22,134 bases of DNA from a virus (lineage: Duplodnaviria > Heunggongvirae > Uroviricota > Caudoviricetes): IMG/VR virus record IMGVR_UViG_2529292905_000029. The stretch is one strand, 5' to 3'. This document shows, in pieces, positions 3,238 to 19,409 of the stretch. The notes beneath the pieces are model-generated. The model was not told where the DNA came from. It saw only the letters and a list, made by a program, of their open reading frames with translations, and did no database searches. Every line of letters begins with the position of its first letter. The first letter of the stretch is position 1. Position numbers and translations under genes: made by a program.

Positions 3238-3509
3238 GTATTCGTATTGAAATTGGCGAACGTTATGTCGTTACCAGTGACAGCTTTCAGTTTATTCTCC
3301 ACGAGAAAAAGAGAGCGGAAAGCGGTAAAAACGCCGGTCAGGAATGGCTGGCGGTGGTTGGTTATTACCCGAAATTAGGCCAGCTCGTTTCCGGCCTGAT
3401 GCATCACGATATTCTGACCGGAAGCGCAAAATCTTTTGCTGATTTAAACGCGCAGGTTGAGCAACTCAGCAAGCGTTGTTCAGAGGCTTTTGGCTCATAT
3501 GGCCGTTAA
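3234..3509 (+). CDS. Hypothetical early protein, 91 aa
   Basis: ORF with overlapping start (ATGA at 3234-3237). Its stop (3507-3509) overlaps the ATG of gene A at 3499. Confidence 0.5.
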   Translation: MSIRIEIGERYVVTSDSFQFILHEKKRAESGKNAGQEWLAVVGYYPKLGQLVSGLMHHDILTGSAKSFADLNAQVEQLSKRCSEAFGSYGR

Positions 3510-5784
3510 AGCCTCCGGGCGTTTTGTCCCTCCGTCAGCATTTACCGCAGGCACCGGTAAGGCGTTTACCGGTGCTTATGCATGGAACGCGCCACGCGAG
3601 GCTGTCGGGCGCGAAAGACCTCTTACACGTGACGAGATGCGTCAGGTGCAAGGTGTTTTATCCACGATTAACCGCCTGCCTTACTTTTTGCGCTCGCTGT
3701 TTACTTCACGCTATGACTACATCCGGCGCAATAAAAGCCCGGTGCACGGGTTTTATTTCCTCACATCTACTTTTCAGCGTCGTTTATGGCCGCGCATTGA
3801 GCGTGTGAATCAGCGCCATGAAATGAACACCGACGCGTCGTTGCTGTTTCTGGCAGAGCGTGACCACTATGCGCGCCTGCCGGGAATGAATGACAAGGAG
3901 CTGAAAAAGTTTGCCGCCCGTATCTCATCGCAGCTTTTCATGATGTATGAGGAACTCTGCGATGCATGGGTTGATGCGCATGGTGAAAAAGAATCGCTGT
4001 TTACGGATGAGGCGCAGGCTCACCTCTATGGTCATGTTGCTGGCGCTGCACGTGCTTTCAATATTTCCCCGCTCTACTGGAAAAAATACCGTAAAGGACA
4101 GATGACCACGAGGCAGGCATATTCTGCCATTGCCCGCCTGTTTAACGATGAGTGGTGGACTCATCAGCTTAAAGGCCAGCGTATGCGCTGGCATGAGGCG
4201 TTACTGATAGCTGTCGGGGAGGTCAATAAAGACCGTTCTCCTTATGCCAGTAAACACGCCATTCGTGATGTGCGTGCGCGCCGCCAGGCAAATCTGGAAT
4301 TTCTTAAATCGTGTGACCTTGAAAACAGGGAAACCGGCGAGCGCATCGACCTTATCAGTAAGGTGATGGGCAGTATTTCTAATCCTGAAATTCGCCGGAT
4401 GGAGCTGATGAACACCATTGCCGGTATTGAGCGTTACGCCGCCGCAGAGGGTGATGTGGGGATGTTTATCACGCTGACCGCGCCGTCAAAGTATCACCCG
4501 ACACGTCAGGTCGGAAAAGGCGAAAGTAAAACCGTTCAGCTTAATCACGGCTGGAACGATGAGGCATTTAATCCAAAGGATGCGCAGCGTTATCTCTGCC
4601 GTATCTGGAGCCTGATGCGCACGGCATTCAAGGATAATGATTTACAGGTCTACGGTTTGCGAGTCGTCGAGCCACACCACGACGGAACGCCGCACTGGCA
4701 TATGATGCTTTTTTGTCATCCACGCCAGCGTAACCAGATTATCGAAATCATGCGTCGCTATGCGCTCAAAGAGGATGGCGACGAAAGAGGAGCCGCGCGA
4801 AACCGTTTTCAGGCAAAACACCTTAACCGGGGCGGTGCTGCGGGATATATCGCGAAATACATTTCAAAAAACATCGACGGCTATGCACTGGATGGTCAGC
4901 TCGATAACGACACCGGCAGGCCGCTGAAAGACACTGCAGCGGCTGTTACCGCATGGGCGTCAACGTGGCGCATTCCGCAATTTAAAACGGTTGGCCTGCC
5001 GACAATGGGGGCTTACCGTGAACTACGCAAATTGCCTCGCGGCGTCAGCATTGCTGATGAGTTTGACGAGCGCGTCGAGGCTGCACGCGCCGCCGCAGAC
5101 AGTGGTGATTTTGCGCTGTATATCAGCGCGCAGGGCGGGGCAAATGTCCCGCGCGATTGTCAGACTGTCAGGGTCGCCCGTAGTCTGTCGGATGACGTTA
5201 ACGAGTACGAGGAAGAAGTCGAGAGAGTGGTCGGCATTTACGCGCCGCATCTCGGCGCGCGTCATATTCATATCACCAGAACGACGGACTGGCGCATTGT
5301 GCCGAAAGTTCCGGTCGTTGAGCCTTTGACTTTAAAAAGCGGCATCGCCGCGCCTCGGAGTCCTGTCAATAACTGTGGAAAGCTCACCGGTGGTGATACT
5401 TCGTTACCGGCTCCCACACCTTCTGAACACGCCGCAGCAGTGCTTAATCTGGTTGATGACGGTGTTATCGAATGGAATGAGCCGGAGGTCTTGAGGGCGC
5501 TCAGGGGTGCATTAAAACACGACCTGAGAACGCCAAACCGTCAGCAAAGAAACGGAAGCCCGTTAAAACCACATGAAATTGCACCATCGGCCAGACTGAC
5601 CCGGTCTGAACGATTGCAAATCACCCGTATCCGCGTTGACCTTGCTCAGAACGGTATCAGGCCGCAGCGATGGGCACTTGAGGCGCTGGCGCGTGGCGCG
5701 ACCGTAAATTATGACGGGAAAAAATTCACGTATCCGGTCGCTGATGAGTGGCCGGGATTCTCAACAGTAATGGAGTGGACATGA
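3499..5784 (+). CDS. A: Rolling-circle replication initiator endonuclease (P2 gpA), 761 aa
   Basis: Start MAVKASGRFVPP at ATG 3499. HUH-type metal-binding motif (PHWHMMLF) and active-site tyrosine motif (GYIAKYISKN) of rolling-circle initiators. Length equals P2 A (761 aa). Confidence 0.92.
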   Translation: MAVKASGRFVPPSAFTAGTGKAFTGAYAWNAPREAVGRERPLTRDEMRQVQGVLSTINRLPYFLRSLFTSRYDYIRRNKSPVHGFYFLTSTFQRRLWPRIERVNQRHEMNTDASLLFLAERDHYARLPGMNDKELKKFAARISSQLFMMYEELCDAWVDAHGEKESLFTDEAQAHLYGHVAGAARAFNISPLYWKKYRKGQMTTRQAYSAIARLFNDEWWTHQLKGQRMRWHEALLIAVGEVNKDRSPYASKHAIRDVRARRQANLEFLKSCDLENRETGERIDLISKVMGSISNPEIRRMELMNTIAGIERYAAAEGDVGMFITLTAPSKYHPTRQVGKGESKTVQLNHGWNDEAFNPKDAQRYLCRIWSLMRTAFKDNDLQVYGLRVVEPHHDGTPHWHMMLFCHPRQRNQIIEIMRRYALKEDGDERGAARNRFQAKHLNRGGAAGYIAKYISKNIDGYALDGQLDNDTGRPLKDTAAAVTAWASTWRIPQFKTVGLPTMGAYRELRKLPRGVSIADEFDERVEAARAAADSGDFALYISAQGGANVPRDCQTVRVARSLSDDVNEYEEEVERVVGIYAPHLGARHIHITRTTDWRIVPKVPVVEPLTLKSGIAAPRSPVNNCGKLTGGDTSLPAPTPSEHAAAVLNLVDDGVIEWNEPEVLRALRGALKHDLRTPNRQQRNGSPLKPHEIAPSARLTRSERLQITRIRVDLAQNGIRPQRWALEALARGATVNYDGKKFTYPVADEWPGFSTVMEWT

Positions 5785-6236
5785 TGGCAAAAATTCACGA
5801 GGTAAAGCTGCACGCAAAATATTTCGACCTTGTGCTGGAAGGAAAGAAACGCGCAGAGTTTCGGAAAAATGACCGTAATTATGAGCGCGGGGACACGTTG
5901 ATTTTGCATGAATGGGCGCAGGGTGTGTATACGGGGAGAAAGGTTGAAGCCAGGATAACAGATGTTACTGACCTGTCAGACTGGCTGGAAGACTATGTCT
6001 TGCTAAGTATTGAGCTGCTTAATACAGGCGCATATGAGATTGTGAACTGGAAAGAACTTAGTGAGCGTGGCCTGGTATTCAGAATTAATCATGAAATTAT
6101 GCATCAGCTCGGCCTTGCTGTTATGTATGAACCAGAGACGGGGATGTCTGGCGGGGCAATGGTCGCCACGGATGGAGCATGGAACTATTCAGATGAACAG
6201 ATGGAGCGTGCACAGCAAAACGGGTGGCTTGGATAA
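5784..6236 (+). CDS. ASCH/DUF3850-like (PUA-fold) protein with C-terminal extension, 150 aa
   Basis: ATG at 5784 overlaps the TGA of A (ATGATG at 5781-5786). N-terminal ~90 aa (MAKIHEVKLHAKYFDLVLEGKKRAEFRKNDRNYERGDTLILHEW...) resembles the ASCH-like DUF3850 fold. P2 has a 91-aa ORF at this position, so the ~60-aa C-terminal extension is unusual. Confidence 0.6.
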   Translation: MAKIHEVKLHAKYFDLVLEGKKRAEFRKNDRNYERGDTLILHEWAQGVYTGRKVEARITDVTDLSDWLEDYVLLSIELLNTGAYEIVNWKELSERGLVFRINHEIMHQLGLAVMYEPETGMSGGAMVATDGAWNYSDEQMERAQQNGWLG

Positions 6237-6442
6237 TGCACAGAATACCAGGCGAGATACCGCACCATAAAACTAAAAATATCAAGCTGATGGCTATTGT
6301 TCAGCGTTTACAGCGGATTATGGTCAACGAAAATCTGACGCCCGATGAGCTGGTCGGGTGTGCCGAAATAGTCCGGGATAATTACGGGCGGCTTAACTAT
6401 ATCGGTCAGTCCAGAGTTGCGCCACCACCACGCAGACGATAG
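6224..6442 (+). CDS. Small hypothetical ORF, 51-72 aa (possible start at 6290)
   Basis: ORF track only. Convergent with the minus-strand cassette. No motif, weak support. Confidence 0.3.
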   Translation: MAWIMHRIPGEIPHHKTKNIKLMAIVQRLQRIMVNENLTPDELVGCAEIVRDNYGRLNYIGQSRVAPPPRRR

Positions 6443-6514
6443 AGAACGCCGCCAGTCGTGAAACTTGTTTTCAGGGCTGGCGGGGTTGAACAATGAGCGT
6501 AGCGAGGCGTTAGC

Positions 6515-6754
6515 CTATTTATTAAAAAATTCTAGAAGTGTAATTCCATTGGCTCCAAGGCTTACAAAGCCTTCAATACTATTAATTGATGTGATTGTCT
6601 TTTTCAGAATGTTCTTTAGCTTTGAGCCTTCTTCGGTCGTAGTTATTACTTCGTTAAATTGCTCAGACATACAAGCATGCCCCATTGTGGCTTCTGTTGC
6701 TGAAATTATTGGCTCAATACCAGTTATTTCATAGTCGTCAAAAGCTCTAATCAT
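6515..6754 (-). CDS. Hypothetical small acidic protein, 79 aa (second gene of accessory cassette)
   Basis: Minus-strand ORF in AT-rich DNA. Its ATG (6754-6752) overlaps the TGA (6753-6751) of the upstream 165-aa ORF. Rich in D/E. No recognisable domain. Confidence 0.5.
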   Translation of the reverse strand: MIRAFDDYEITGIEPIISATEATMGHACMSEQFNEVITTTEEGSKLKNILKKTITSINSIEGFVSLGANGITLLEFFNK

Positions 6755-7248
6755 GTTGTCAATGTAATATAATATTTCTTTTTTAGGTTAATTGGGAAGT
6801 CAGAATTAATTATGGATTCCTTCAGTTCTAATAATTGCCCCTTTATTTCAATTAACTGTTCATCTTTAAGTTTTCCAATCTGACCTTTGGTCTTGAATAG
6901 GACTGATATCATCCCTAATTCATTTATGGCATTATCAGAGATTCTTTGGAGGGAATGGGACAGAGATTCTCCCAGATTTAAGTTTTCGAAAAAATCATTA
7001 ACACTGGGCCTCCAGTGTGGGGCTGTGATTTCATCTTCTGGAAAGTAGTCTTTTAATGTGTTATCTATTTTTTTAGGCAAGCTCATGATTTTGGAAATCT
7101 TATCCCATAAGATGGTTTTATTATCTTCAGAACCCTCTAATTCAAACATTTGTAATAAAGCACGCTTTACCGTAATGTTATATGGTTGTTGTGCTTTTAG
7201 CTTGGTGAAAAACTCTCGTAAGGTCAGTGCTGAATTGTCGATGTACAT
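6751..7248 (-). CDS. Hypothetical protein, 165 aa (first gene of accessory cassette)
   Basis: Minus-strand ORF in the AT-rich block, with AGG about 9 nt upstream of the ATG at 7248 and a promoter-like sequence upstream. C-terminal region looks coiled-coil-like (KLKDEQLIEIKGQLLELKESI). No catalytic motif recognised. Confidence 0.55.
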   Translation of the reverse strand: MYIDNSALTLREFFTKLKAQQPYNITVKRALLQMFELEGSEDNKTILWDKISKIMSLPKKIDNTLKDYFPEDEITAPHWRPSVNDFFENLNLGESLSHSLQRISDNAINELGMISVLFKTKGQIGKLKDEQLIEIKGQLLELKESIINSDFPINLKKKYYITLTT

Positions 7249-7290
7249 GGAAAAACCTAACAGTCAAATTATTAATAATAGAACAACAAG

Positions 7291-7319
7291 ATACTAATAA
7301 AATCTAACGTTAGTATCAA
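7291..7319 (-). promoter_or_regulatory. Candidate sigma70 promoter for the accessory cassette (TTGATA-N17-TAGTAT on minus strand)
   Basis: Reverse complement of 7314-7319 is TTGATA and of 7291-7296 is TAGTAT, separated by 17 bp. The spacer contains the perfect palindrome CTAACGTTAG (7304-7313). About 40 nt upstream of the ATG at 7248. Confidence 0.45.
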
Positions 7320-7450
7320 TAACGAATATATGCGCACACTGCATGAAAATGCATTTTCTTTTAAGGGGGCGATATATCGAGTCGAGTCATGGTTGATGCG
7401 ACATTAGTGTGCTGGTGCAACTGCATTCAAACAGACCCATGAAGCGGGCG

Positions 7451-7469
7451 GGCGAGGCGGGGAAAGCAC
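7451..7469. other. cos site: 19-nt cohesive-end sequence GGCGAGGCGGGGAAAGCAC
   Basis: Exact 19-mer that I recall as the P2 cohesive end, found at the expected map position between the accessory slot and the 3' end of Q. A G/T-rich tract follows at about 7540-7610. Confidence 0.7.
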
Positions 7470-7610
7470 TGCGCGCTGGCGGTGGTGCTGATTTTATTTT
7501 TTCAGCGTCTCAGCGCGTCGTGACGGCGCTTAGTCTGCCCGTTGAGGCGTTGGTGTGTCTGCGGGGTGTTTTGTGCGGTGGTGAGCGTGTGAGGGGGTGA
7601 TGACGGGGTG

Positions 7611-7638: not shown

Positions 7639-8673
7639 TCAGTCGTTGTCAGTGTCCAGTGAGTAGTTTTTAAAGCGGATGACCTCCTGACCGAGCCAGC
7701 CGTTTATCTCGCGGATCCTGTCCTGTAACGGGATAAGCTCATTGCGGACAAAGACCTTTGCCACTTTCTCAATATCTCCCAGTGACCCGACGTTCTCCGG
7801 CTTGCCGCCCATCAACTGAAAGGGGATGCGGTGTGCGTCCAGCAGGTCAGCGGCGCTGGCTTTTTTGATATTAAAAAAATCGTCCTTCGTTGCCACTTCA
7901 CTGAGCGGGATAATTTTAATGCCGTCAGCTTTCCCCTGCGGGGCATAGAGAAACAGGTTTTTAAAGTTGTTGCGACCTTTCGACTTAACCATGTTTTCGC
8001 GGAGCATTTCGATATCGTTGCGATCCTGCACGGCATCGGTGACGTACATGATGTATCCGGCATGTGCGCCATTTTCGTAATACTTGCGGCGGAACAACGT
8101 GGCCGACTCATTCAGCCAGGCAGAGTTAAGGGCGCTGAGATATTCCGGCAGGCCGTACAGCTCCTGATTAATATCCGGCTCCAGCAGGTGAAACACGGAG
8201 CCGGGCGCGAAAGGTGTCGGCTCGTTGAAGGACGGCACCCACCAGTAAACATCCTCCTCCACGCCACGGCGGGTATATTTTGCCGGTGAGGTTTCCAGTC
8301 TGATGATCTTACCGGTGGTGCTGTAACGCTTTTCCAGAAACGCATTACCGAACACCAGAAAATCCAGCACAAAGCGGCTGAAATCCTGTTGTGAAAGCCA
8401 CGGATGCGGGATAAATGTCGAGGCCAGAATATTACGTTTGACGTAAATCGGTGAGCTGTGATGCACGGCAGCACGCAGACTTTTTGCCAGACCGGTAAAG
8501 CTGACCGGCGGCTCATACCATCTGCCGTTACTGATGCATTCGACGTAATCCAGAATGTCACGGCGGTCGAGTACCGGCACCGGCTCGCCAAAGGTGAATG
8601 CCTCCATTTTCGGGGCGCTGGCGGTCATTGTTTTTGCCGCAGGTTGCGGTGTTTTCCCTTTTTTCTTGCTCAT
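7639..8673 (-). CDS. Q: Portal protein (P2 gpQ), 344 aa
   Basis: Minus-strand ORF of 344 aa, the same length as P2 Q. Adjacent to and overlapping the terminase large-subunit gene; immediately inside cos, as in P2. Confidence 0.9.
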   Translation of the reverse strand: MSKKKGKTPQPAAKTMTASAPKMEAFTFGEPVPVLDRRDILDYVECISNGRWYEPPVSFTGLAKSLRAAVHHSSPIYVKRNILASTFIPHPWLSQQDFSRFVLDFLVFGNAFLEKRYSTTGKIIRLETSPAKYTRRGVEEDVYWWVPSFNEPTPFAPGSVFHLLEPDINQELYGLPEYLSALNSAWLNESATLFRRKYYENGAHAGYIMYVTDAVQDRNDIEMLRENMVKSKGRNNFKNLFLYAPQGKADGIKIIPLSEVATKDDFFNIKKASAADLLDAHRIPFQLMGGKPENVGSLGDIEKVAKVFVRNELIPLQDRIREINGWLGQEVIRFKNYSLDTDND

Positions 8674-17797: not shown

Positions 17798-19409
17798 GGG
17801 GGTGCGGACGATTTCTTGGACGGTTTATACGGACATCAATCCGACCGCATGACGATACTCGATGGGACTACGCCCGCCAAGCGACACTTTGATGCGGCGC
17901 TCGTTGTACCAGTGGATATAGGCATCGATTCGCGTCATGAGGTCTTTCAGCGTCACGTGCTGCCAATTCCTCGGGTAGATTAGTTCGGTCTTCAATCGTC
18001 CGAAAAAGCCCTCGCATGCAGCATTGTCTGGCGAGCAGCCCTTTTTGGACATCGACCGCGTTAATTGGGCATTTTCAGTGCGGCGGATCCACGCAGGCCA
18101 GCGATAATGCGAGCCCCTGTCCGAATGGATAACCGGATGCTCACCGGGTCGCAGTGTCCGTACCGCGTGATCCAGCATGGTATTGACCAGGTTCGCATCC
18201 GGGCTGGTGCCGATATTCCAGGCCACCACCAGCCCATCGAAGCAATCGACGATCGGCGAGACGTAGACCTTCCCTGCCGGAATGTGTATTTCCGTCAGAT
18301 CGGTCAACCATTTCGTATTCGGCGCCGACGCGTGAAAGTCGCGATTCAGCAGATTCGGGACCGCTGGTGTCGGGTCGCCAGCATACGCCGAGAAGCGCCG
18401 GCGGCGCGGTGTTCTCACGACCAGACGCTCTTGCGCCATCAAGCGACGCACGACCTTCTCGGACACACGCATGCCACCAAGGCGCAAGGCACTATCAATG
18501 CGTCGATAGCCATAGCAGCGGTAGTTGTCCTCGAAGATAGTCCGAATGACCTCACGCACCTGCGTGTACTTGTCGGGCCGCGTCTGCCGCAGGCGTTGAT
18601 AGAAGTATGTGCTGCGCGCCAGCTTCAGGCCGCACAACAGATTGGCTAATGGAAACGTGACTCTGAGGGCATCAACCACCTTCGTTTTTTCTCGGCTTGT
18701 CAGTTCGAGGGGGTTGATGCCCATGTCTTTTTTTATCAATTCACTCGCCTTCTCCAGAATTGCATTCTCCATGCGAAGCCGCTGGTTCTGGCTCTCCAGT
18801 TCGGCCAGTTCCCTGAGTAGTGCCTCATGCCGCTGCTCGAGCGAGGTGTCACCTTTCTTCTTTGTCATGGGTTTTAGGGGCACTTTGCCAAGTAATCGAT
18901 GCTGCCAGTTATACAACGTTGGTCGCGATACACCGACAGTGTCGGCCACATCCTTTGCCGAACCTACGCGCAGGTTCAGTGCAATGACGGCTTGCTGCTT
19001 CTCGAGGCGAGAGCGGGCGACTGTGGGAGCGCTGCTGCCGACGACCGTCCTAGCGAATTCAGGGCGTAAATCACGGATCCAGGCACGCAAGGCCTCGCGG
19101 CTTGGGTAGCCCAGGCTTCGGATTGTGTGACTCAGGCAGTAGCCTTGTTCGATATAGTGATCTACTGCCCGTTGCTTTTGCTCATCGGTGTACTGCCGTT
19201 TTATCCGTTGATAGCCTCGGCGAAGATCCTGATTCCGTTCGAATTCTGCCAACCAGGCCTTCAGCGAGTTCTTGGTGGGGTATCCCAGCTGCCGTAGTGT
19301 GGCGCTCATCCGGCGCCCAAGCTTCAGGTACAACCTCACGGCTCGAAGGCGATCTTCATACGAATACATGAACTACTCCTAAAGTAGTCCAAGATTTTGT
19401 CCGCACCCC
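17798..19409 (-). mobile_element. Insertion sequence (~1.61 kb), IS3-family-like, inserted in gene W
   Basis: Imperfect terminal inverted repeats: left GGGGGTGCGGACGATTTCTTGGAC, right (reverse complement) GGGGTGCGGACAAAATCTTGGAC. Flanked by an ATA(A) direct repeat. Carries one long transposase ORF. Removing it restores a 115-codon W reading frame. Confidence 0.85.
17825..19369 (-). CDS. Transposase, IS3-family-like DDE (rve) type, single fused 514-aa ORF
   Basis: N-terminal HTH region resembling IS150-type InsA (MYSYEDRLRAVRLYL...), leucine-zipper-like segment (LLRELAELESQNQRLRMENAILEKA), and C-terminal rve-type catalytic motifs (HSDRGSHY; SPDNAACEGFFGRLKTE). AGGAG lies 7 nt upstream of the ATG. 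Confidence 0.85.
   Translation of the reverse strand: MYSYEDRLRAVRLYLKLGRRMSATLRQLGYPTKNSLKAWLAEFERNQDLRRGYQRIKRQYTDEQKQRAVDHYIEQGYCLSHTIRSLGYPSREALRAWIRDLRPEFARTVVGSSAPTVARSRLEKQQAVIALNLRVGSAKDVADTVGVSRPTLYNWQHRLLGKVPLKPMTKKKGDTSLEQRHEALLRELAELESQNQRLRMENAILEKASELIKKDMGINPLELTSREKTKVVDALRVTFPLANLLCGLKLARSTYFYQRLRQTRPDKYTQVREVIRTIFEDNYRCYGYRRIDSALRLGGMRVSEKVVRRLMAQERLVVRTPRRRRFSAYAGDPTPAVPNLLNRDFHASAPNTKWLTDLTEIHIPAGKVYVSPIVDCFDGLVVAWNIGTSPDANLVNTMLDHAVRTLRPGEHPVIHSDRGSHYRWPAWIRRTENAQLTRSMSKKGCSPDNAACEGFFGRLKTELIYPRNWQHVTLKDLMTRIDAYIHWYNERRIKVSLGGRSPIEYRHAVGLMSV

What the first reader, a model, noticed from the sequence alone, without database searches (positions are those of the whole stretch)
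6515..7248. Uncharacterised two-gene cassette in the P2 tin/old accessory slot: candidate novel anti-phage or toxin-antitoxin-like module
Two minus-strand ORFs (165 aa, then 79 aa) are translationally coupled through an ATGA overlap at 6751-6754. They sit in a block that is conspicuously AT-rich by eye compared with the GC-richer phage genes on either side. The block lies between replication gene A and cos, which is where P2 carries tin and old and is a recognised variable cargo/defence hotspot in P2-like prophages. Neither protein shows a motif I can recognise: no Walker A, HNH, PD-(D/E)xK or HEPN-like Rx4-6H motif, and no transmembrane segment. The larger protein looks helical with a coiled-coil-like C-terminus, and the smaller is strongly acidic. 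The cassette is antisense to the flanking phage operons and has its own promoter-like sequence. A small protein pair carried as lysogenic-conversion cargo fits an abortive-infection or toxin-antitoxin-like module, but function is inferred from context only.
Basis: partly seen in the sequence, partly recalled or inferred. Interest (0 to 1): 0.85.

Follow-up and report, generated by a model that had tools for sequence, protein, structure and literature searches.

The report
Frameshift-split phage hotspot gene
The supposed two-gene cassette is one 244-residue prophage accessory gene of unknown function, cut in two by the loss of a single A in a run of seven, so it is not a toxin-antitoxin pair, although the intact gene remains an untested candidate anti-phage gene.

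Summary
The two ORFs, the ATGA overlap, the low G+C and the position between gene A and cos are all real. The two-gene reading is wrong. Both ORFs match one 244-position phage family (PHROG 15904), at positions 1-163 and 166-244. All 17 close homologues, and 148 of the 150 best distant ones, are single proteins of about 240 aa that span the junction. Eight near-identical loci carry CTA AAA AAA GAA where the window has CTA AAA AAG AA, so one A is missing at 6779-6784. The window is identical to an E. coli DEC5E contig. It differs from an intact allele (L026) by that deletion and two substitutions across 1.5 kb. The same deletion occurs in an independent assembly on another allelic background, so it is probably real and recurrent. 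The deletion creates an in-register dnaX-type A_AAA_AAG heptamer. A -1 ribosomal shift there would restore the wild-type protein, but no stimulators are present. The intact gene is a lone, all-helical protein with no Pfam, PADLOC, NCBIfam or PDB relative. It always sits in the gpQ-gpA defence hotspot of P2/186-like prophages and stays intact in decayed remnants. It is a plausible single-protein defence gene, untested. An IS3-family element also disrupts baseplate gene W.

The parts
6515..7248 (-). One gene of the PHROG 15904 / 244-aa family, 734 nt, disrupted by a 1-nt deletion
   Evidence: The 165-aa ORF matches PHROG 15904 at 1-163 (E 8e-109) and the 79-aa ORF at 166-244 (E 4.5e-50). Phage GMS190 and loci L002-L007 and L026 have one extra A and a single 244-aa ORF. 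All 17 close homologues are 243-251 aa with 100% coverage.
6751..7248 (-). N-terminal fragment ORF: native residues 1-157 plus 8 out-of-frame residues (KYYITLTT), then TGA
   Evidence: The exact protein is WP_000275056.1 / EHV43423.1 of E. coli DEC5E.
6515..6754 (-). C-terminal fragment ORF, equal to residues 166-244 of the intact protein. It starts at an internal Met codon and has no Shine-Dalgarno-like sequence.
   Evidence: It holds the most conserved motif of the family (A-[FIL]-D-[DE]-Y-x-I-T-G...E-A-T-M-G-H). The exact protein is WP_000617213.1.
6778..6784 (-). Site of the lesion. The A7 run of intact alleles is A6 here (6779-6784), which gives an in-register A_AAA_AAG heptamer (codons CTA 6786-6784, AAA, AAG 6780-6778).
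   Evidence: A -1 shift here reads ...INLKK|EILYYIDNMIRAF, which is the wild-type sequence (read directly). There is no downstream RNA structure.
7291..7319 (-). Promoter-like site upstream of the gene (TTGATA, 17 nt, TAGTAT)
   Evidence: This is a consensus match only and is not enriched over shuffled sequence.
7451..7469 (+). cos: the exact 19-nt P2 cohesive-end sequence GGCGAGGCGGGGAAAGCAC
   Evidence: 0 matches in 100 shuffles.
5748..6442 (+). The flank on the A side: a DUF3850/ASCH + DUF7415 gene (5748..6236) and a small PHROG 11386 ORF (6224..6442). They are conserved next to the cargo gene in E. coli loci.
7639..8673 (-). Portal gene Q, the other border of the hotspot
   Evidence: Phage_portal.

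Best explanation
Shown: window 6515-7248 (minus strand) is a single gene that encodes a 244-residue all-helical protein. In this copy (E. coli DEC5E) one A has been lost from an A7 run. The reading frame therefore ends 8 codons later at a TGA that overlaps an internal ATG, and this mimics a translationally coupled gene pair.

Shown: the deletion is recent and derived. The same deletion occurs on a second allelic background.

Inferred: the intact gene is stand-alone cargo of the gpQ-gpA hotspot of P2/186-like prophages. It is transcribed from its own promoter in the lysogen, antisense to the replication operon, as tin and old are in P2. It most likely protects the lysogen against other phages as a single non-enzymatic protein. 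I see two possible modes of action. It could bind and poison a phage component, as Tin does. Alternatively, it could release a C-terminal hydrophobic helical hairpin into the membrane after sensing infection. That hairpin is pronounced in distant family members and weak in the E. coli subfamily.

Inferred: in this window the gene is inactive, or at best leaky through unstimulated -1 frameshifting on the A_AAA_AAG heptamer that the deletion created.
For: Single gene:
- The two ORFs match one PHROG colinearly.
- All 17 close homologues are 243-251 aa at 100% coverage, with a conserved continuous junction LKKEILHYINNMIRAF.
- The profile search finds 776 cluster representatives. 148 of the best 150 span the junction in one chain.
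- Eight near-identical loci have A7 where the window has A6.

Derived and recent:
- The intact allele P0168/L026 carries the window's own Y68 and G137. It differs across 5953-7510 only at 7337, at 7021 and by the deletion.
- The split forms sit on about 2 contigs, against about 121 for intact forms.

Real and probably recurrent:
- The same deletion is present in Logan assembly ERR14005119 on a different background. There are 8 other differences within the gene, and intact counterparts P0179 and P0182 exist.

The break is structurally disruptive:
- It falls inside helix 153-171, where pLDDT is about 95. It is not at the 121-130 linker.

Hotspot cargo:
- The gene lies between portal and gpA, antisense to A, in every P2/186-like prophage or phage contig examined. 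gpA identity in these ranges from 36% to 99%.
- Distant members lie at the edge of a P4-like satellite, in a lambdoid nin region, at a prophage end, and next to an MNT/HepT pair.
- The gene is intact inside decayed prophage remnants in Enterobacter (P0004, on 55 contigs) and Cronobacter (14 contigs read).

Prior from the literature:
- The gpA-gpQ locus is a defence hotspot (PMC9122126).
- 6 of 8 randomly chosen P4 hotspot loci of unknown function protected against phages (PMC13586616).

Hairpin:
- 40 of 92 family members have a 19-residue Kyte-Doolittle mean of at least 1.6. In 36 of these the segment lies in the last ~50 residues.
Against: - No experiment and no homology ties the family to defence.
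- PADLOC, Pfam and NCBIfam are negative for 92 members.
- There is no relative by sequence in the PDB.
- In lambdoid prophages the gene is co-oriented with the early lytic operon. That would also fit a counter-defence or host-takeover role.
- The hydrophobic hairpin is weak in the E. coli subfamily (Kyte-Doolittle mean 1.09).
- Tin shows no sequence similarity.
- The promoter is only a consensus match.
Confidence: 0.55

Rival explanations
1. This is a genuine two-protein module. The 165-aa and 79-aa products are made by termination-reinitiation at ATGA and act together, as toxin-antitoxin or as sensor-effector.
For: - The ATGA overlap exists.
- The same split allele is seen in two assemblies.
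- The C-terminal fragment is 100% conserved in both.
- One metagenomic protein (P0019, 112 aa) carries an unrelated N-terminus fused exactly at Met166.
Against: - No relative has the split as a conserved architecture.
- The split removes 8 residues from the middle of a high-confidence helix.
- There is no Shine-Dalgarno sequence before the second ATG.
- The allele is 1 nt away from an intact allele that sits on 81 contigs.
- No toxin or antitoxin domain is present.
Confidence: 0.04
2. This is a leaky or switchable allele. The deletion turns the A7 run into the dnaX/IS911-type -1 heptamer A_AAA_AAG in the correct register. A few ribosomes would then restore the exact wild-type 244-aa protein. 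Recurrent A7/A6 slippage would work as a dosage or on/off switch for a costly gene.
For: - The heptamer is in register, and the -1 product equals the wild-type protein (read).
- A_AAA_AAG is described as much more shift-prone in E. coli than the other -1 heptamers compared. 'Savior indel plus low compensatory frameshifting' is a recognised class (PMC5009743).
- The same deletion occurs on two allelic backgrounds.
Against: - There is no downstream structure (z -0.05) and no upstream Shine-Dalgarno-like stimulator. dnaX needs both for about 50% efficiency (PMC1851650).
- The run is not conserved. Enterobacter has CTT AAA AAA GAA in frame, and Serratia has no run.
- Any loss of one A from this run creates the heptamer automatically.
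- A7 is short for a contingency tract.
- Only 2 of about 123 contigs carry the deletion.
Confidence: 0.12
3. The missing A in the DEC5E draft assembly is a homopolymer sequencing or assembly error, and the gene is intact in the real strain.
For: - The lesion is a 1-nt length change in a homopolymer.
- The window is 100% identical to a draft contig of GCA_000249575.2.
- The exact 165-aa protein is known from that contig only.
Against: - The identical deletion is present in an unrelated sequencing run (ERR14005119) on a diverged background: 34 substitutions in 1.9 kb and no other gap.
- No other indel separates the window from the intact alleles across this region.
Confidence: 0.1
4. The intact family is not an anti-phage defence. 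It is another kind of accessory function, such as counter-defence, host takeover or a lysogenic-conversion regulator, that happens to travel in the same variable slots.
For: - In lambdoid prophages it lies in the nin region, co-oriented with lytic early genes.
- Some P2 hotspots carry anti-defence genes (PMC13586616).
- No defence model matches.
- Only 15-32% of P2 genes of unknown function scored as antiviral with machine-learning predictors (PMC13586616).
Against: - In P2/186-like phages it is antisense to the lytic operons, as tin and old are.
- It is retained intact in decayed, non-inducible remnants. That argues for benefit to the host rather than to a replicating phage.
Confidence: 0.3

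Closest known systems
PHROG 15904 (phage orthologous group, function unknown)
   Same: The window's two ORFs together cover profile positions 1-163 and 166-244 with E-values of 8e-109 and 4.5e-50. This is the family the gene belongs to.
   Different: Family members are single proteins of 244 positions. The window copy is frameshifted. The family has no assigned function.
P2 Tin (NP_046797.1), the lysogenic-conversion protein that blocks T-even phages
   Same: - It occupies the same slot, immediately after the DUF3850 gene that follows A.
- It has the same antisense orientation.
- It is of similar size (253 aa against 244 aa).
- It is a single protein without an enzymatic motif.
   Different: - No sequence relationship is detectable: hhalign probability 0.08%, BLASTP E = 7.
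- Tin is co-transcribed with old, whereas this gene stands alone.
Type II toxin-antitoxin pairs
   Same: Two small ORFs with a 4-nt ATGA overlap, on AT-rich mobile DNA.
   Different: - The two ORFs are halves of one protein in all relatives.
- There is no toxin or antitoxin domain.
- The 'pair' arose by a 1-nt deletion.
dnaX / IS911-type -1 frameshift sites (A_AAA_AAG)
   Same: The heptamer is identical and in the correct register. The -1 product would be the full-length wild-type protein (PMC1851650, PMC5009743).
   Different: - There is no upstream Shine-Dalgarno-like element and no downstream stem-loop.
- The site is not conserved in relatives.
- It is created by a mutation rather than maintained.
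Pseudogenised hotspot cargo in P2-like prophages
   Same: A disrupted accessory gene at the main defence locus of a P2-like prophage that also has an IS in a core gene. Pseudogenes are frequent in these loci (PMC13586616).
   Different: That survey found that most such pseudogenes are tiny intergenic remnants. Here the whole gene is preserved with one lesion.
[not shown]
   Same: - The wider family has a C-terminal hydrophobic helical hairpin.
   Different: - The matches cover about 100-117 residues at 7-13% identity, with rmsd of 3-5 A.
- Foldseek finds nothing significant.

Membership tests
PHROG 15904 / 244-aa enterobacterial family | Colinear full-length sequence match to the family profile | tested here: met
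   (positions 1-163 and 166-244). (81-100% identity for the closest members). (alignment A1).
PHROG 15904 / 244-aa enterobacterial family | One uninterrupted ORF of about 240-250 codons | tested here: not met
   The window has A6 instead of A7 at 6779-6784, and the frame ends at 6751. The copy is a frameshifted member.
Type II toxin-antitoxin module | Two genes conserved as separate, adjacent ORFs in relatives | tested here: not met
   17 of 17 close relatives and 148 of the 150 best distant relatives encode one chain across the junction.
Type II toxin-antitoxin module | A recognisable toxin fold and an antitoxin DNA-binding or neutralising domain | tested here: not met
   No Pfam, NCBIfam or PADLOC hit above threshold for either ORF.
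P2 Tin | Sequence homology to Tin | tested here: not met
   hhalign probability 0.08%. BLASTP E = 7.
P2 Tin | Position after the DUF3850 gene downstream of A, antisense, before cos | tested here: met
P2 Tin | Exclusion of T-even phages through gp32 | not testable with these tools
   This needs plaque assays and escape mutants.
Known anti-phage defence systems (PADLOC-DB v2.0.0) | HMM match to a component of a described or candidate system | tested here: not met
   No hit for the window ORFs. Only scattered single-member noise among 92 family members.
gpA-gpQ hotspot cargo of P2-like phages (Rousset et al. 2022) | Variable gene content between gpA and portal gpQ, next to cos | tested here: met
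   -.
- The cassette is absent from all 5,426 complete E. coli genomes, while the 65-nt flank is present in 273.
- The hotspot definition comes from PMC9122126.
gpA-gpQ hotspot cargo of P2-like phages (Rousset et al. 2022) | Demonstrated anti-phage activity | not testable with these tools
   The accessions of this family were not found in the supplementary tables of PMC9122126.
Programmed -1 ribosomal frameshift site (dnaX type) | An X_XXY_YYZ slippery heptamer in the zero frame | tested here: met
   CT-A AAA AAG at 6784..6778.
Programmed -1 ribosomal frameshift site (dnaX type) | Stimulators: an upstream Shine-Dalgarno-like element and/or a downstream stem-loop or pseudoknot | tested here: not met
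   - The downstream 77 nt fold no better than shuffles (-7 kcal/mol, z -0.05), and nothing pairs within 45 nt of the site.
- No GGAG, AGGA or GAGG occurs in the 30 nt upstream.
Programmed -1 ribosomal frameshift site (dnaX type) | Conservation of the shift site and the two-frame arrangement in relatives | tested here: not met
   Relatives read straight through in one frame.
Phase-variable (contingency) homopolymer locus | Recurrent length changes of the tract among close strains | tested here: inconclusive
   The same A7-to-A6 change occurs on two allelic backgrounds. It is present on only about 2 of about 123 contigs, and the tract is short.

The most novel reading that the evidence does not exclude
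The 244-aa family is a new kind of single-protein anti-phage defence. It would be a soluble helical bundle that hides a C-terminal membrane-inserting hairpin. Its A7 tract would be a recurrent mutational switch: loss of one A creates an A_AAA_AAG site, so a small fraction of ribosomes still make the full-length protein. The result would be an attenuated allele rather than a dead one, for a gene that is costly to carry.
Probability: 0.08. Interest if true: 0.65.

Novelty: new member of a known kind. Interest (0 to 1): 0.33.

Why it matters
For the scan, this corrects a high-scoring lead. A 4-nt ATGA overlap between two small ORFs of unknown function in a defence hotspot looked like a toxin-antitoxin or two-component module. 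It is the scar of a homopolymer deletion. Anyone cloning 6515-7330 from this strain would test a broken gene.

The useful residue is the intact gene. It belongs to a family of at least 776 cluster representatives at 50% identity, and no Pfam or PADLOC model, solved relative or assigned function could be found for it. Its close members always sit in the P2/186 gpQ-gpA hotspot, and it survives intact in decayed prophage remnants. That makes it a reasonable, cheap candidate for a plaque-assay screen.

It is, however, one of many such unknowns. [quoted passage not shown]

Tried and rejected
- **Profile libraries.** Pfam, NCBIfam and PADLOC gave nothing for either ORF. Pfam and PADLOC also gave nothing for 92 family members.
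- **Sequence search of the PDB.** Close and broad profiles returned only designed helical proteins at E of at least 0.006.
- **Homology to P2 Tin.** Rejected.
- **GiPD474, the Gifsy single-gene defence.** Rejected, because it has an ATPase domain.
- **Supplementary tables of Rousset et al.** The family's accessions were not found there.
- **Pattern scans with broad alignments.** The search for related loci with A2 or A3 failed, because no stretch was conserved enough.
- **Second word-indexed protein search.** The search with the broad profile hit the candidate cap and added little.
- **Look-up of the intact allele P0168.** L026 from IMG/VR supplied the same allele instead.
- **GenBank phages.** Only GMS190 among 50,697 records carries a member.
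- **Downstream frameshift stimulator.** None found.
- **dN/dS on the split lineages.** There were too few changes to interpret: 5 nonsynonymous and 3 synonymous.

Full report
**1. What is in the sequence**

The two minus-strand ORFs exist as described. One runs 6751..7248 (165 aa) and the other 6515..6754 (79 aa). The stop of the first overlaps the start of the second in ATGA at 6751-6754. G+C falls to 0.34 across 6600-7200, against 0.47-0.58 on both sides.

The window is a P2-like prophage. In order it carries integrase, C, cox, B, gene A (3457..5784), a DUF3850/ASCH gene, a small ORF and the block in question. These are followed by the exact 19-nt P2 cohesive-end sequence at 7451-7469, then portal Q and terminase P. 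The block therefore sits in the tin/old slot, antisense to the A operon. The upstream promoter-like site (7319..7291) is only a 9/12 consensus match, and such sites are not enriched here over shuffled sequence.

**2. The two ORFs are one gene**

- Against PHROGs, both ORFs hit the same 244-position family, phrog_15904. The 165-aa ORF matches at 1-163 (E 8e-109) and the 79-aa ORF at 166-244 (E 4.5e-50).
- Yersinia phage GMS190 is 99.5% identical over 6450-7400 but one base longer. On the coding strand it reads CTA AAA AAA GAA where the window reads CTA AAA AAG AA. It encodes a single 244-aa protein.
- Seven further near-identical loci (L002-L007, L026) all have A7 and a 244-codon ORF.
- A search of 5.8 billion proteins returned 17 homologues from Escherichia, Enterobacter, Klebsiella, Cronobacter, Kosakonia and Serratia. 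All are 243-251 aa and cover 100% of the query. The junction LKKEILHYINNMIRAF is continuous and conserved.
- An exhaustive profile search found 776 cluster representatives at E <= 1e-3. Of the best 150, 148 span the junction within one chain.

The window's N-terminal ORF therefore carries native residues 1-157 plus eight out-of-frame residues. The C-terminal ORF begins at internal Met166. Residues 158-165 are lost from both. In the AlphaFold model (pLDDT 86.9, pTM 0.77, 14 helices) the break lies inside helix 153-171, where pLDDT is about 95. It does not lie at the only dip that looks like a linker, at 121-130. Nothing supports a two-protein architecture.

**3. Origin and age of the lesion**

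The window is 100% identical over 16,754 nt to contig AIFU01000023.1 of E. coli DEC5E. The exact 165-aa and 79-aa proteins are WP_000275056.1 and WP_000617213.1 from that strain.

An intact allele, P0168, is recorded on 81 contigs and is encoded by L026. It carries the window's own variant residues Y68 and G137. Across 5953-7510 the window differs from L026 only at 7337, at 7021 and by the missing A. The frameshift is therefore recent and derived.

The same deletion appears in an independent assembly, ERR14005119 (L025). That copy differs from the window at 34 positions in 1.9 kb with no other gap. Within the gene it has its own substitutions (S22, A97, T145), and intact counterparts of that background exist (P0179, P0182). 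This argues against a pure sequencing artefact. It also suggests that the A7 run has lost an A at least twice, which is an inference. Recombination could also have moved the lesion.

In the 90% cluster, split forms sit on about 2 contigs and intact forms on about 121. This low frequency resembles the rarity of defence-gene pseudogenes reported for P2-like prophages (PMC13586616).

The prophage has a second lesion. A 1.6-kb IS3-family element at about 17798-19409 interrupts baseplate gene W.

**4. A nuance: the allele may be leaky**

Deleting one A from CTA AAA AAA GAA necessarily yields CT-A AAA AAG-AA. This is the dnaX/IS911-type -1 slippery heptamer in the correct register (6784..6778). A tandem -1 slip there reads ...INLKK|EILYYIDNMIRAF, which is exactly the wild-type protein (read).

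A_AAA_AAG is described as much more shift-prone in E. coli than the other -1 heptamers it was compared with. Low-level compensatory frameshifting over 'savior' indels is a recognised phenomenon (PMC5009743).

Against a programmed role:
- The 77 nt downstream fold no better than shuffled sequence (z -0.05), and nothing pairs within 45 nt of the site.
- No Shine-Dalgarno-like element lies upstream. dnaX needs both stimulators for its 50% efficiency (PMC1851650).
- The run is not conserved in relatives.

I therefore treat this as a possible low-level leak and not as a designed feature.

**5. What the intact gene is**

The conserved features are:
- an N-terminal M-x-x-D-N-P-A-x-R-L motif;
- a central A-I-D-E-Y-x-I-T-G...P-I...E...G-H motif, which begins just after the break;
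- a C-terminal pair of short hydrophobic helices separated by G-[LV]-P, seen in the wider family. In 40 of 92 members the 19-residue Kyte-Doolittle mean is at least 1.6, and in 36 of these the segment lies in the last ~50 residues. The hairpin is weak in the E. coli subfamily, with a maximum of 1.09.

**6. Genomic context**

- Close members sit between portal Q and gpA, antisense to A and usually alone. This holds in every P2-like or 186-like prophage or phage contig examined, although gpA identity ranges from 36% to 99%.
- In Enterobacter and Cronobacter the gene is intact inside decayed remnants, next to fragments of gpD, integrase, portal or gpA. This is seen on many contigs.
- A 43%-identical Serratia member lies at the edge of a P4-like satellite.
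- Distant members lie in a lambdoid nin region, at a prophage end, as chromosomal orphans, and next to an MNT/HepT pair.
- The cassette is absent from 5,426 complete E. coli genomes, and only GMS190 among 50,697 GenBank phage records carries a member.
- The gpA-gpQ interval is an established defence hotspot (PMC9122126). Six of eight randomly chosen P4 hotspot loci of unknown function protected against phages (PMC13586616).

**7. Most likely mechanism**

Shown: this is one gene, frameshifted, and it is hotspot cargo.

Inferred: the intact protein is expressed from the prophage and protects the lysogen as a stand-alone, non-enzymatic helical protein. It could act as a stoichiometric binder of a phage component, which is functionally like Tin. 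It could instead act by infection-triggered exposure of its C-terminal hydrophobic hairpin to the membrane, which would be abortive infection. My estimates:
- single-gene reading: about 0.95;
- defence role: about 0.5;
- the membrane version of the mechanism: about 0.2.

The main rival for function is a counter-defence or other accessory role. This is suggested by the gene's co-orientation with lytic early genes in lambdoid prophages.

**8. Novelty and verdict**

The feature as reported, a two-gene module, is not real. What exists is a recently broken copy of an uncharacterised but already catalogued family (PHROG 15904) in a known hotspot. This makes it a new member of a known kind. The intact family is a fair candidate for experimental screening, but it is one of many such unknowns, and the copy in this window is the wrong one to clone. 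Interest: 0.33.

Noticed in passing
window 17798-19409 (transposase ORF 17825..19369, minus strand): A 1.6-kb IS3-family insertion sequence with 23-nt terminal inverted repeats sits in baseplate gene W, at about codon 94. It is flanked by a 4-bp ATAA repeat, and removing it restores a 115-aa gpW. Other P2-like phages have W and J contiguous here. Identical IS copies occur in about 60 of 5,426 complete E. coli genomes. The prophage is probably defective.
   Followed up: partly
window 5748-6442 (+): The gene after A combines DUF3850/ASCH with DUF7415 (162 aa from the first GTG, 151 aa as called elsewhere), whereas P2 Orf91 is 109 aa. It is followed by a small PHROG 11386 ORF. Both travel with the cargo gene in E. 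coli loci.
   Followed up: no
L009-L011 (Enterobacter cloacae complex) and L037/L038 (Cronobacter): Intact copies of the 244-aa gene persist in decayed P2/186-like remnants. In Enterobacter these lie between tonB and cls, with ogr, gpD and integrase fragments and a SMEK_N gene. In Cronobacter they have a truncated portal and a truncated gpA. This pattern suggests the gene is kept for the host's benefit.
   Followed up: partly
L008 (Serratia marcescens) 6001-6735: A 43%-identical homologue lies beside three Ogr/Delta genes and a P4 alpha-type primase. This places it at the edge of a P4-like satellite, although P2 and P4 are reported to almost never share defence genes (PMC13586616).
   Followed up: no
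alignment A2 (92 family members), C-terminal ~45 residues: The wider family ends in a hydrophobic helix - G-[LV]-P - helix hairpin (for example ANVVTVAVGLPQLA...LL). It is strong in 40 of 92 members and weak in the E. coli subfamily. It may be a latent membrane-inserting element.
   Followed up: partly
P0019 (ENA metagenome contig, 1,069 nt): This 112-aa protein has residues 33-112 equal to the Enterobacter-type C-terminal part, starting exactly at Met166. Its first 32 residues are unrelated. It could be a rearranged or chimeric copy, and it remains unexplained.
   Followed up: no
L002, L003, L005 (E. coli relatives of the window), upstream of gpA: A 335-aa PAPS-reductase-like gene is inserted between the DUF5405 gene and gpA in some otherwise very similar prophages. 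It is absent from the window and from L004. This is a second variable slot.
   Followed up: no
L024 (DEC5E contig), beyond window position 1: The prophage is integrated next to cpxP-cpxR-cpxA.
   Followed up: no
L015/L016 and L033/L034 (distant family members): One distant member is preceded by a DUF6680 gene in two metagenomic contigs. Another is followed by an MNT/HepT (nucleotidyltransferase + HEPN) toxin-antitoxin pair downstream of htpG.
   Followed up: no
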